A stretch of DNA of 64,000 nucleotides from Paecilomyces variotii (Eukaryota), in NCBI GenBank assembly GCA_004022145.1, contig RCNU01000001.1; one strand, written 5' to 3'. The position numbers and the translations under genes were made by a program. Below are positions 12,782-30,980 of this stretch, piece by piece; within the stretch, counting starts at the first letter, position 1; every line of letters begins with the position of its first letter. The notes beneath the pieces were generated by a model. The model was not told the DNA's origin. It saw only the letters and a list, made by a program, of their open reading frames with translations, and made no database searches.

Positions 12782-12869
12782 CGACCAACGCAGGATTCGA
12801 ACCTGCGATCTTCCGCATGCGAGGTTAAAGAACCGGAAACGGATGCCTTATCCACTAGGCCAGTTGGCC
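12782..12869 (-). tRNA. tRNA-Arg(CCG) with a ~15-nt intron
   Basis: Minus strand reads GGCCAAC TGGCCTAGTGGATAAGGC A TCCGT TT CCG G [intron] T GCGGA AGATC GCAGG TTCGAAT CCTGC GTTGGTC G. Stems pair, A- and B-boxes are present, and a T-run terminator follows. Confidence 0.95.
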
Positions 12870-28963: not shown

Positions 28964-29177
28964 TACCCGATTGTTGAAAAAGCTTTTATGGATGGTTCTT
29001 CCTGTATCTGGCGTTAGAGGCACATTGGGGGACGCGGTTGAGGAAGTAAAATGGCGCAACAGGTATCTATGGTATTGCAGCTCCATTATCATTATGTAAT
29101 CTTTGGTAACAATACATGATCAAAAATAATTTTCAGCTCCGAAAATGCAGGATTCTGGTAGACCTTGCCAGTGTACC

Positions 29178-30212
29178 TCATCTCCCCATATTCATAGCTT
29201 GTGTGAGAGCGAGCCGCTTACTGAAGGGGCTCAAACTGCGCTCCCGCGGCGGAGCAGGAGCTGGGGCTTCCCTCCGCTGGCGCCCATTCTCCCCGCCATA
29301 TCTGCCCCTAGGCGATCGAGGTCTGGGTGGCCGACGCTCCCTCTCGTGAACAGGTACTGGCAGATCCTCCGGAGTCAATGACCGCCGCCCTTTTGCGATG
29401 CGACTCTTATCCAGACTATCGCTCCGAGACCTGTCTCGTCGTCGTCCCCGACTGCTCACTTCATGTTTGCGCCCGCGCTCCTCTGGGCTAGATATTCTGT
29501 GACGTCTTCTTATATTCCTCTCATGGTCTCTGTCCCTAGATTGCGCGCGCCCCACAGACGAGGGAGAAGAGTGTGAGTACCCCGAAGATGCGTCGCTGTA
29601 TCGCCTCTTTCTCCTCCTTGATTCATGAGGCGAAACAGATGTAGTCCTACGTGGTGATCTTGTCTCACTGCCGCCGGCGTCGTACCTTTGCCGGCGCTCC
29701 CGAGACGCAGAACGGGAACGGTTGGTAGATATGGTGGAGACAGAGCTGGCAGAATGCGACGACAGCGACCTTGCACGCTTCCGTGATTGATGACGGCCAT
29801 CTGAAAGCTCGTCGAGGTCGTCTATATCCCTTTTCCGTCCTCGCTCTTCGTCCTTTTTCTTTAGCAGCTCATCTGCGACACCCTTCCTGTAGAGGCATTA
29901 GATCCCTGGAAACAAGACACAGTAAGGGCATGACATACGTGCGCGAGAGATCATTTGGTACCTCTGTTGTGAGCTTAGGCCTCAGATCTGGGTTCAGGAG
30001 TTGCTGGGTGCGGGAAGGCCGAGATATATACGGTCTCTCCTGAGCAGGCGCCTTGCATTCGTAACTATAGTGCCGTGCTTGGTGTCAGTTAGGAGAGCTG
30101 CAAAAAATATAGACAAGCTGAACATATCTCTTTTTAAACATTTCTGGCAAAGTGTGTCAGCAGAAGCCCTTGTTGGACCTCGCAACCCAGGGACATTTCG
30201 ATATCGGTTCAT
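29178..30212 (-). CDS. Zinc-knuckle (CCHC) Ser/Arg-rich protein, ZCCHC10-like, 3 exons
   Basis: Exons 30212-30128, 30074-29939 and 29886-29178. Spliced product has CQKCLKRGHYSYEC...ERPYISRPSRTQQL, an RS-rich region and the C-terminus RERSLSPFSKRLALTQAMNMGR. Confidence 0.88.
30075..30127 (-). other. Non-canonical AT-AC spliceosomal intron (53 nt)
   Basis: Minus strand reads AGAG|ATATGT...CTCTCCTAACTGACACCAAGCAC|GGCAC. Removal restores exact C-x2-C-x4-H-x4-C spacing. Confidence 0.8.
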
Positions 30213-30980
30213 TGCACGCAGCGTTCGACGGAACACTGATCGCGCTGGTTTGCGGGATTTTGGGGGAACTCTGAGTTGATAAATGGAAGGACTAACCGCG
30301 CAGGTGCGACGAATAGGATATGGAATGGAAGAAGCCTGATATTCTAATTGCGCCTTATGTTCACCCCGAGATATCAGAACGTTGGAGAGTCATAACTACC
30401 AAAACCATAAATTGTCGCGGGGCGGCTATCACAGCCAACCACAGCAGGCAACACCCGCGCGGCAAGCACACCGGGGGCTAAACCCCACGAAGGAAGCCGT
30501 CCTGCTTGGGTTTACCAGATCCAACGTCTGCTCTCTCTCACCTCCGCCGTCTTCTGTATCCGCCCCTCGTCTTTCAGGCAGACAATCGCCTTCTTCGTGG
30601 GACACCCTGAGAGTCCTGCTCTTCTTGGCTTTGCAGAAGTCATTCTTCCTGAGACTGAGCCAGCGACTGACGCTTCGAACACGCTGTTACCGTTGACCTT
30701 TTATTGCCAGTATCAAGTCTGGCTGACTATATTATCCTACGTCGTGCACCTTGCTAGCCTTTTCGGGCAGCTTCAATTCCTGGGAACCGCGTCTTTTCAC
30801 ATGGCGAATGTCTTCTCTCAGAGATATGTCGTCTTTCTCTTTGGGCTTGTGTGAAGCGTTTGTCAGCGACCTCATCTCAGTTCGAGTTTCGGTTCAATCC
30901 TTTCCTTAACCCGCACTGCGCTCCTATTAGTCCGGCTCAGCGTCGTAGGCACAACTCGTGCTTTCCGTGACTAATTGAAG

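What the first reader, a model, noticed from the sequence alone, without database searches (positions are those of the whole stretch)
30075..30127. An obligatory AT-AC intron splits the zinc knuckle of a ZCCHC10-like gene in a lineage thought to lack the minor spliceosome
Seen in sequence: the minus strand reads ...TGC CAG AAA TGT TTA AAA AGA G|ATATGTTCAG...CTCTCCTAACTGACACCAAGCAC|GG CAC TAT AGT TAC GAA TGC. Removing these 53 nt gives CQKCLKRGHYSYEC, an exact C-x2-C-x4-H-x4-C knuckle in frame with the rest of the gene. The only GT downstream of the second Cys codon (30123) joined to either nearby AG (30098, 30078) runs into a stop within a few codons. An AT-AG splice at 30078 keeps frame but adds one residue and breaks the spacing. 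The donor ATATGT is the fungal U2 donor GTATGT with a G-to-A change, not the U12 consensus ATATCC, and the acceptor is CAC in place of CAG. The branch context TCCTAAC also resembles the U12 branch TCCTTAAC. Established knowledge: filamentous ascomycetes are regarded as having lost U11/U12. Inference: this is a U2-spliced AT-AC intron, possibly a converted relic of an ancestral minor intron. It could act as a rate-limiting splicing switch, and gene predictors would mis-annotate it.
Basis: partly seen in the sequence, partly recalled or inferred. Interest (0 to 1): 0.88.

Follow-up and report, generated by a model that had tools for sequence, protein, structure and literature searches.

The report
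Conserved AT-AC intron, fungal zinc-knuckle gene
A small fungal zinc-knuckle gene carries a real intron that starts with AT and ends with AC instead of GT and AG; related fungi keep these ends, so it is a rare but already known kind of intron that often misleads gene prediction.

Summary
On the minus strand, 30127..30075 is a 53-nt AT..AC intron. An RNA-derived contig (run X5) skips exactly these bases, with no ambiguity about the cut. A DNA contig (X16) shows the same genomic ends. Among the splice-site pairs enumerated, only this cut gives C-x2-C-x4-H-x4-C.

Of 80 related metagenome loci, 47 have a complete intron at this site. These give 31 distinct sequences: 30 AT..AC, 1 AT..AA and 0 GT..AG. 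Thirty loci have no intron here, and 3 are cut off.

The donor fits the ordinary fungal pattern (AT[AG]NGT), and none has ATATCC. A CTRAY branch motif lies 7-12 nt from the 3' end. So this is a major-spliceosome "type II" AT-AC intron, which is a known kind. The nearest named relatives of the intron-bearing loci fall in four classes of filamentous ascomycetes.

Descent from a U12 intron was not tested, and the U12-like branch motif is not conserved. The splicing-switch idea rests on one intron-retaining contig (X4). Mis-annotation is common: 29 of 120 listed homologues lack the knuckle.

The parts
30128..30212 (-). Exon 1 (ATG 30212). It encodes MNRYRNVPGLRGPTRASADTLCQKCLKR plus the first base (G) of the Gly codon, and holds the two Cys of the knuckle.
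   Evidence: RNA contig of X5 covers 30128..30340
30075..30127 (-). Intron 1: 53 nt, phase 1, ends AT..AC. It is removed exactly in the RNA contig of X5 and retained in the contig of X4.
30122..30127 (-). 5' splice site ATATGT. This is the donor hexamer of intron 2 of the same gene (GTATGT) with A in place of G at +1.
   Evidence: the commonest hexamer among orthologues (14 of 31 distinct introns)
30084..30092 (-). Branch region CTAACTGAC, made of two overlapping CTRAC motifs. The A of CTGAC (30085) lies 10 nt before the 3' end, which matches the orthologues' spacing.
   Evidence: for the sequence; for spacing (7-12 nt in 30 of 31 distinct orthologous introns, 29 of those 30 at 10-12); the branch choice is inferred
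30075..30077 (-). 3' splice site CAC. An unused AG lies just upstream at 30079..30078.
   Evidence: 3' trinucleotides among orthologues: CAC 16, TAC 13, AAC 1, TAA 1 of 31
29939..30074 (-). Exon 2. It starts GG CAC and encodes (G)HYSYECKAPAQERPYISRPSRTQQLLNPDLRPKLTTEVPNDLSR(T). It holds the His and last Cys of the knuckle and the most conserved part of the protein.
29887..29938 (-). Intron 2: 52 nt, an ordinary GT..AG intron (GTATGT ... CTAAT ... CAG).
   Evidence: (skipped in the contigs of X4 and X5)
29178..29886 (-). Exon 3, an Arg/Ser/Lys-rich tail ending ...LTQAMNMGR plus the stop codon. The whole coding sequence gives 309 residues.

Best explanation
Window 30127..30075 (minus strand) is a genuine spliceosomal intron with AT-AC ends. 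It sits in phase 1 inside the Gly codon between the second Cys and the His of the CCHC knuckle of a zf-CCHC_3 (ZCCHC10-like) gene. The fungus is Paecilomyces variotii or a near relative.

The intron is of the major (U2-dependent) class, the 'type II' AT-AC kind. Apart from its first and last bases it looks like any short fungal intron, with donor AT[AG]NGT and a CTRAC branch about 10-11 nt before the 3' end.

Inferred mechanism: an A at +1 still allows the first catalytic step. The second step needs the non-Watson-Crick contact between the first and last intron bases, and A pairs with a terminal C rather than a G. The AG three bases upstream is therefore passed over, and the AC at the usual distance from the branch is used.

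A change of either end alone should impair splicing, so the pair is hard to convert to GT-AG. In related fungi the intron is either kept with AT-AC ends or lost outright. Removal may be less efficient than for a GT-AG intron. A transcript that retains the intron shifts frame and stops early, before the His and last Cys.
For: - Exact junction 30128/30074 in the RNA-derived contig of X5, 'both' = 0, with intron 2 also removed.
- The same genomic ends in the DNA contig of X16 and in the unspliced contigs of X4 and X1. X1 has two substitutions and a 3-nt insertion inside the intron but unchanged ends.
- Only this splice restores C-x2-C-x4-H-x4-C. The spliced coding sequence gives 309 residues.
- The closest deposited protein, P0003, has Pfam PF13917 over residues 17-57, E 2.2e-20. 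It matches the 309 residues apart from one residue and a 66-residue gap.
- Of 80 related metagenome loci, 47 have a complete intron at this codon, 30 have none, and 3 start inside the intron and end ..TAC.
- The 47 give 31 distinct introns of 46-59 nt. All 31 start with AT; 30 end AC and 1 ends AA; none is GT-AG.
- Donor hexamers: ATATGT 14, ATAAGT 6, ATAGGT 4, ATGAGT 3, ATAGGA 2, ATAAGA 1, ATACGT 1. ATATCC: 0.
- A CTRAY motif is present in 30 of 31, with its A 7-12 nt from the 3' end. Where intron 2 was found in the same loci it starts GT and ends AG, read by eye from the gap sequences printed.
- Protein models that read through the intron all have Asp (GAY) after CLK[RK], never Gly: 19 of 19 and 18 of 18. 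Frame-shifted models read ..RYV (AGA TAT GT).
- Nearest named relatives of intron-bearing loci lie in Eurotiomycetes, Lecanoromycetes, Leotiomycetes and Botryosphaeriales (a crude assignment).
- Passages of Sheth et al. 2006 (PMC1557818) state that U2-type AT-AC introns are functional. They also state that a G-to-A change at the first base is rescued by G-to-C at the last base in yeast and human pre-mRNAs, 'although less efficiently'.
- Passages of PMC10639083 and PMC2846911 report no convincing minor introns or minor snRNAs in Ascomycota.
Against: - Direct RNA support for the junction is a single assembled contig from one run. The tool labels that run 'RNA? (a guess)'. Its RNA nature is inferred from the clean removal of both introns.
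- X4 keeps the intron, and the X1 contig is unspliced at both introns (DNA or pre-mRNA, cannot tell). No quantitative statement about usage is possible.
- Dependence on U2/U1/U6 rather than on a minor spliceosome is inferred from sequence signals and from the literature. This genome could not be searched for U11, U12, U4atac or U6atac because no genome is held. The 64-kb window holds only a tRNA.
- Read-through protein models are a biased sample, because GT-AG introns would be predicted correctly and never read through. The unbiased evidence is the set of DNA loci.
- The 80 loci are the best 80 of 383 matches and probably all belong to Pezizomycotina.
- One lineage (L046/L050) ends AA, and a related protein model (P0092) implies a terminal G. 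The A-C rule is therefore not absolute, or that 51-nt in-frame intron is no longer spliced.
Confidence: 0.9

Rival explanations
1. Origin: the intron descends from a U12-type AT-AC intron of early fungi. When the minor spliceosome was lost, its donor and branch drifted to U2-type signals while the AT-AC ends stayed.
For: - The intron appears to be old. It carries AT-AC ends in loci whose nearest named relatives lie in four ascomycete classes, and there is no GT-AG version.
- It is in phase 1. [quoted passage not shown]
- U12-to-U2 conversion at identical positions is documented in nematodes in passages of PMC2846911.
- Conversion needs no change of the termini, whereas descent from GT-AG needs two coupled changes (inference).
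Against: - No orthologous DNA from Mucoromycota, chytrids, Basidiomycota, animals or plants could be examined.
- The U12-like TCCTAAC in the window is not conserved in orthologues.
- Full-text searches for ZCCHC10 with 'minor intron' found 0 papers, and with 'U12' found 1 irrelevant paper.
- U2-type AT-AC introns also occur in species without U12 snRNAs, for example 10 'other AT-AC introns' in Monosiga in Table 2 of PMC2846911.
Confidence: 0.25
2. The intron is a U12-type intron removed by a minor spliceosome that persists unnoticed in this fungus.
For: It has AT-AC ends, a short branch-to-3'-end distance, and a TCCTAAC motif in the window that loosely resembles the U12 branch consensus.
Against: - The donor is ATATGT, not ATATCC. 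0 of 31 distinct orthologous introns have C at +5, and all 31 have G there.
- Branch motifs are the ordinary fungal CTRAC.
- The branch distance equals that of the GT-AG intron 2 of the same gene. It is also within the usual fungal range, with a peak at 11-14 nt in a passage of PMC4324775.
- Surveys find no minor snRNAs or introns in Ascomycota (passages).
Confidence: 0.03
3. The AT-AC junction is an artefact (assembly chimera, reverse-transcriptase template switch or strain deletion). The real mRNA uses a canonical GT-AG pair or keeps the sequence.
For: Only one contig shows the junction. In-frame GT-AG alternatives exist, and annotators have used them in other species: CQKSRHYSYEC in P0094, and CLKRDIYEC in P0155, P0193, P0227 and P0230.
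Against: - There is no shared sequence at the joint ('both' = 0), which argues against template switching.
- The same contig removes the GT-AG intron 2 precisely.
- The DNA contig of X16 keeps the 53 nt.
- Every canonical alternative destroys an otherwise invariant knuckle.
- 30 of 31 distinct orthologous introns keep AT..AC at the position that restores the frame and the knuckle.
Confidence: 0.03
4. Added function: slow removal of the AT-AC intron is used as a regulatory step. The retained form shifts frame, stops early and yields no functional protein.
For: - The X4 contig has intron 2 removed but intron 1 retained, while X5 has both removed.
- Retention gives ..CLKRDMFSLSIFFAALLTDTKHGTIVTNARRLLRRDRIYLGLPAPSNS and then a stop.
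- A1/C-last pairs splice 'less efficiently' in yeast and human tests (passage of PMC1557818).
- Several read-through protein models come from contigs of about 0.7-1 kb, which may be transcripts: P0217, P0202, P0218.
Against: - Two contigs cannot give a ratio.
- Retention of short fungal introns is common in general (recalled, not from a call).
- Whole lineages have lost the intron with no sign that it was needed: 30 of 80 loci, several on contigs of 20-227 kb.
Confidence: 0.15

Closest known systems
U2-type ('type II') AT-AC introns, e.g. human SCN4A and SCN5A, and TAF2 of human and fly (Sheth et al. 2006, PMC1557818; passages seen)
   Same: AT-AC ends combined with a donor that otherwise fits the U2 consensus. 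The ends are preserved between orthologues. The class is rare (15 human, 6 mouse and 3 fly introns in that survey).
   Different: This one is in a filamentous ascomycete, a lineage without a minor spliceosome. It is very short (53 nt). Its ends are the same in loci whose nearest named relatives span four fungal classes. Its dependence on U2 has not been tested at the bench.
U12-type AT-AC introns of the minor spliceosome
   Same: AT-AC ends, a short branch-to-3'-end distance and a non-zero phase.
   Different: It lacks the ATATCCTT donor (0 of 31 orthologues plus the window) and a conserved TCCTTAAC branch. The host lineage is reported to lack minor snRNAs.
Yeast and human first/last-base suppressor mutants, where G1-to-A is rescued by last G-to-C (Parker and Siliciano 1993, and others, as cited in PMC1557818)
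   Same: The same pair of bases at the two intron ends in a U2-type intron. The expected lower efficiency fits one intron-retaining contig.
   Different: Those are engineered mutants. This is a natural intron that many fungi have kept.
AT-AC junctions reported in RNA-seq or annotation surveys of filamentous fungi
   Same: The same class of junction in Pezizomycotina. Examples: Trichoderma longibrachiatum 69 of 14305 junctions (PMC4324775); Fusarium graminearum (PMC3577648); 0.03% of SnowyOwl introns (PMC4084796); xylanase genes 'hypothesized' (PMC1557818); annotation statistics (PMC7072748).
   Different: In the passages I saw, these papers give counts only. None names this gene or shows conservation of one AT-AC intron across classes.

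Membership tests
U2-type (type II) AT-AC intron | Intron starts AT and ends AC | tested here: met
   Window 30127..30075; 30 of 31 distinct orthologous introns
U2-type (type II) AT-AC intron | Donor fits the U2 consensus apart from position +1 | tested here: met
   ATATGT against GTATGT of intron 2 in the same gene. Orthologues follow AT[AG]NG[TA], with G at +5 in 31 of 31.
U2-type (type II) AT-AC intron | Removed from RNA at exactly these ends | tested here: met
   One contig of run X5 joins 30074 to 30128 with 'both' = 0. This is a single contig.
U2-type (type II) AT-AC intron | Splicing depends on U1/U2/U4/U6 and not on U11/U12/U4atac/U6atac | not testable with these tools
   This needs snRNA depletion or genetics. 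Only sequence signals and the literature on Ascomycota are available.
U12-type intron | Donor [AG]TATCCTT | tested here: not met
   The window has ATATGTTC. 0 of 31 orthologous introns have ATATCC.
   The window has TCCTAAC, but orthologues have GCTGAC, ACTAAC, TCTGAC, TCTGAT and GCTTAC. The distance of 10-12 nt is also normal for fungal U2 introns.
U12-type intron | Genome encodes U11, U12, U4atac and U6atac | not testable with these tools
   No genome is held for this window. Rfam on the 64-kb window finds only a tRNA. Surveys report their absence in Ascomycota.
zf-CCHC_3 (PF13917), the ZCCHC10-like proteins | Significant match to the Pfam model | tested here: met
   P0003, the deposited model closest to the window's protein: 72.7 bits against a cut-off of 27, residues 17-57. 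It matches the spliced window product apart from K75N and a 66-residue gap. All listed homologues carry PF13917. An Atlas cluster named 'Zinc finger CCHC-type containing 10' scored 0.88, which is a lead only.
zf-CCHC_3 (PF13917), the ZCCHC10-like proteins | C-x2-C-x4-H-x4-C knuckle | tested here: met
   Present only after the AT-AC splice. Intact in 91 of 120 listed homologues.

The most novel reading that the evidence does not exclude
This may be a surviving footprint of the minor spliceosome in ascomycetes. On this reading it was a U12-type AT-AC intron of early fungi that was taken over by the major spliceosome when U11/U12 were lost. Since then it has been locked in place, because either end changed alone blocks the second splicing step, so the only way out has been loss of the whole intron. 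If so, the handful of AT-AC introns in Dikarya could be used to reconstruct which genes carried minor introns before the loss.
Probability: 0.25. Interest if true: 0.7.

Novelty: new member of a known kind. Interest (0 to 1): 0.5.

Why it matters
- **Annotation.** In this gene family a quarter to over half of the database protein models are wrong at this spot. Some read through the intron, some start inside it, and some are forced onto a GT-AG pair that deletes a zinc ligand. Gene finders for fungi should allow AT-AC with a U2-type donor.
- **Mechanism.** It is a natural example of the first-base/last-base pairing rule of the major spliceosome. An unused AG lies 3 nt upstream of the used AC, and the same arrangement recurs in several orthologues. 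This makes it a convenient substrate for studying 3' site choice in a genetically tractable group of fungi.
- **Evolution.** Among the loci examined, the AT-AC state was never replaced by GT-AG but was often removed by intron loss. That pattern fits a two-site fitness valley. It also gives a concrete test case for what happened to minor introns when the minor spliceosome disappeared.

Tried and rejected
- **Own genome.** The genome search 'own' with RF00007 answered that no genome is held. No genome-wide search for U11, U12, U4atac or U6atac was possible. Rfam on the window gave only a tRNA, which says nothing about the rest of the genome.
- **Earlier findings of this scan.** Nothing was returned for the words tried.
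- **Literature.** ZCCHC10 with 'minor intron' gave 0 papers. ZCCHC10 with 'U12' gave 1 paper, on sheep genomics and irrelevant by its title and abstract start. The hit in PMC3091305 was a false match to 'KS-AT-ACP' domain strings. I found no paper that names this intron. Subscription journals and supplements were not searchable, and the minor-intron catalogues in the supplements of PMC10639083 and PMC7367187 could bear on the U12 question.
- **Reaching outgroups.** The representative search with exon 2 listed the best 150 of 339. Names could be obtained for only 3 of 10 divergent representatives, all Pezizomycotina: Tothia, Lasallia and Xanthomendoza. No sequence from Basidiomycota, Mucoromycota, animals or plants was obtained, so the age of the intron beyond Pezizomycotina is open.
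- **X1 metatranscriptome contig.** It is unspliced at both introns and spans the flanks. It may be DNA or pre-mRNA and was not used as evidence of retention.
- **Non-spliceosomal excision (HAC1-like).** Rejected without a separate test, because the donor, the branch motif and its spacing are those of spliceosomal introns.
- **Taxon labels of metagenome loci.** These are only 'nearest named protein' by tblastn and are not a phylogeny.
Full report
**What is in the sequence**

On the minus strand a small gene starts with ATG at 30212. Exon 1 (30212..30128) encodes MNRYRNVPGLRGPTRASADTLCQKCLKR plus one G. The next 53 nt, 30127..30075, start ATATGT and end AAGCAC. Exon 2 starts GG CAC TAT AGT TAC GAA TGC and reads HYSYECKAPAQERPYISRPSRTQQ.... 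A second intron, 29938..29887, is an ordinary GTATGT...CAG intron of 52 nt. Exon 3 runs to the stop at 29178. The three exons give 309 residues.

I listed every GT-AG, GC-AG, AT-AC, AT-AG, AT-AA and GT-AC pair in the region. The finding does not mention five canonical in-frame splices: GT-AG 30139..30078, 30123..30065 and 30114..30065, and GC-AG 30148..30078 and 30118..30078. Each of them removes a zinc ligand or breaks the spacing.

**RNA and DNA evidence**

The run search found 19 rows holding the stretch or part of it, from 8 studies. I laid four runs on 29100..30500.

- **X5.** Its 1970-nt contig lies on 29100..29885, 29938..30074 and 30128..30340. It skips exactly 30075..30127 (ends GT..AT on the + strand, 'both' = 0) and also skips intron 2. 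The run is labelled 'RNA?' by guess, but a contig lacking both introns precisely is a spliced transcript.
- **X4.** Its contig removes intron 2 but keeps intron 1.
- **X1.** Its metatranscriptome contig is unspliced at both introns. It carries two substitutions (30108, 30110) and a 3-nt insertion inside intron 1, with the ends unchanged.
- **X16.** Its DNA contig covers the whole stretch with only two differences, both outside the gene body. The AT and AC are therefore not assembly errors. The tool warns that X16 may be the source of this DNA.

The predicted junction is confirmed, but by one contig, and nothing can be said about how much of the transcript is spliced.

**What the gene is**

Exon 2 found 524 proteins at E <= 0.001 among 526 candidates, and the best 120 were listed. 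All 120 carry PF13917, and the top hit is a Paecilomyces variotii hypothetical protein identical over exon 2. That protein, P0003, matches the Pfam zf-CCHC_3 model at 72.7 bits. It already contains the correctly spliced knuckle. It differs from the RNA-supported product by K75N and by a 66-residue internal gap, and the X5 contig is continuous across that gap. An Atlas cluster named after ZCCHC10 scored 0.88, which is a lead only.

**Orthologous DNA**

I aligned exon-2 peptides from 12 proteins (A1). With it I scanned the metagenome collection: 383 stretches encode a relative, and the best 80 loci were kept. For each locus I located the C-x2-C codons upstream of the His codon.

- 30 loci have no intron at this site.
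- 47 have a complete intron of 46-59 nt.
- 3 loci (L035, L038, L074) begin inside the intron and end ..TAC before the Gly codon.

The 47 collapse to 31 distinct intron sequences.

| Feature | Counts among the 31 distinct introns |
|---|---|
| First two bases | AT 31 |
| Last two bases | AC 30, AA 1 (L046/L050) |
| GT..AG | 0 |
| Donor hexamer | ATATGT 14, ATAAGT 6, ATAGGT 4, ATGAGT 3, ATAGGA 2, ATAAGA 1, ATACGT 1; ATATCC 0 |
| Last CTRAY motif | CTGAC 18, CTAAC 7, CTGAT 3, CTGAG 2, none 1 |
| Branch A to 3' end | 7-12 nt in the 30 with a motif, 29 of them at 10-12 |

Where intron 2 was found in the same loci, the printed sequences start GT and end AG (read by eye). Several orthologues also have an unused AG 1-4 nt before the terminal AC, as the window does.

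**Intron loss**

Of the 30 loci without intron 1, most also lack intron 2. Their nearest named relatives are mostly Pleosporales proteins. Several lie on long contigs and so are genomic: L004 227 kb, L030 136 kb, L075 81 kb, and L016, L027, L008 and L021 at 20-28 kb. L017, L018 and L025 lack intron 1 but keep a GT-AG intron 2. Some short intron-less contigs, such as L068 (1.9 kb, nearest Clarireedia), could instead be transcripts.

The nearest named relatives of intron-bearing loci are Lecanoromycetes, Leotiomycetes, Eurotiomycetes and Botryosphaeriales. This is a crude best-hit assignment and not a tree. It suggests that the AT-AC intron predates the split of these classes.

**Protein models as indirect evidence**

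Among the 120 listed homologues, 91 have the intact knuckle and 29 do not. The 29 break down as follows.

- 19 read through the intron, all with CLK[RK]D... (GAY, so the intron starts with A). When the intron length is a multiple of three they mostly read ...R-H (C|GG).
- 5 are frame-shifted and read ...RYV (AGA TAT GT).
- 1 (P0094) uses the GT-AG pair that gives CQKSRHYSYEC.
- 4 start inside the intron.

Among 125 further representatives at 50% clustering, 52 are intact and 73 are not. All 18 read-through forms have LK[RK]D, and 4 have CLKRDIYEC, the other forced GT-AG pair.

These models are a biased sample, because a GT-AG intron would have been predicted correctly. They therefore show mis-annotation and agree with the DNA, but they are not independent proof.

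**Class of intron and mechanism**

The donor varies among orthologues exactly as fungal U2 donors do (GT[AG]NGT), with A in place of G at +1. G at +5 is invariant, and the U12 donor ATATCC never occurs.

The branch motif and its distance match those of the GT-AG intron 2 of the same gene (CTAAT, 11 nt). They also match the usual fungal range (peak 11-14 nt, passage of PMC4324775).

Passages of PMC10639083 and PMC2846911 report no convincing minor introns and no minor snRNAs in Ascomycota. I could not check this genome.

Passages of Sheth et al. 2006 define U2-type 'type II' AT-AC introns and count 15 in human, 6 in mouse and 3 in fly. They mention that xylanase genes of filamentous fungi were hypothesised to contain such introns. 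They also state that G-to-A at the first base is rescued by G-to-C at the last base in yeast and human, though less efficiently.

From this I infer the mechanism given under Best explanation. The first step tolerates A at +1. The second step pairs the first and last bases, so A selects C and the nearby AG is skipped. The structural detail of that pairing in spliceosome structures is recalled and comes from no call.

The trap argument, that either single change is harmful so that only intron loss escapes, is also inference. It fits 0 GT-AG among 31 distinct introns against 30 intron-less loci.

**Origin and regulation**

Descent from a U12-type intron is possible but untested. I obtained no DNA from lineages that keep the minor spliceosome. 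The representative search did not reach outside Pezizomycotina in the names I could recover, and literature searches linking ZCCHC10 to minor introns found nothing relevant. Supplements, which hold the minor-intron catalogues, were closed.

The regulatory reading rests on X4's retention of intron 1 with intron 2 removed. It also rests on the fact that retention shifts the frame and stops the protein before the His.

**Novelty**

The kind is known. AT-AC junctions have been counted in RNA-seq or annotation studies of filamentous fungi: 69 of 14305 junctions in Trichoderma longibrachiatum, listed among non-canonical sites in Fusarium graminearum, 0.03% of SnowyOwl introns, and annotation statistics in PMC7072748. 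In the passages and listings I saw, none names this gene or shows one AT-AC intron kept across classes. My five searches found no such report.

I therefore rate it a new member of a known kind. It has real value for annotation and as a natural test case, and the question about its origin remains open.

Noticed in passing
L046:1063-1113 and L050 (same intron): One lineage has a 51-nt intron at the same site that starts ATACGT but ends AA, not AC. It is in frame and has no stop. A related protein model (P0092, ...SLGH...) implies a terminal G in a close relative. Either the last base is free to vary here or this intron is no longer removed.
   Followed up: partly
L001-L010, L016, L019-L021, L023, L024, L026, L027, L030, L068, L075; L017, L018, L025: Many related loci lack intron 1. 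Most also lack intron 2, and their nearest named relatives are mostly Pleosporales. Three loci lack only intron 1 and keep a GT-AG intron 2. This suggests at least two separate loss events.
   Followed up: partly
window 29381..29578 (minus strand, inside exon 3): The deposited P. variotii protein P0003 lacks 66 residues that the window encodes (RYDAGG...RRHRIS) and has N for K at residue 75. The RNA contig of X5 is continuous across this part, so the deposited model probably contains a spurious extra intron.
   Followed up: partly
window 30101..30110: The metatranscriptome contig of X1 differs inside intron 1 (T>A at 30108 and 30110, AAA inserted behind 30101) while the intron ends are unchanged. 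This is strain-level variation of the intron body.
   Followed up: no
window 29602: The X4 contig lacks 2 nt here (depth 9), inside the coding tail. It could be an assembly error or a frameshifting variant.
   Followed up: no
window 12782..12869 (minus strand): A tRNA gene, the only Rfam match in the window at gathering thresholds (53.2 bits).
   Followed up: no
P0224 (2203 aa): A very long protein matches a 16-residue part of exon 2 in six stretches. This is probably a low-complexity or repeat match and not a relative.
   Followed up: no
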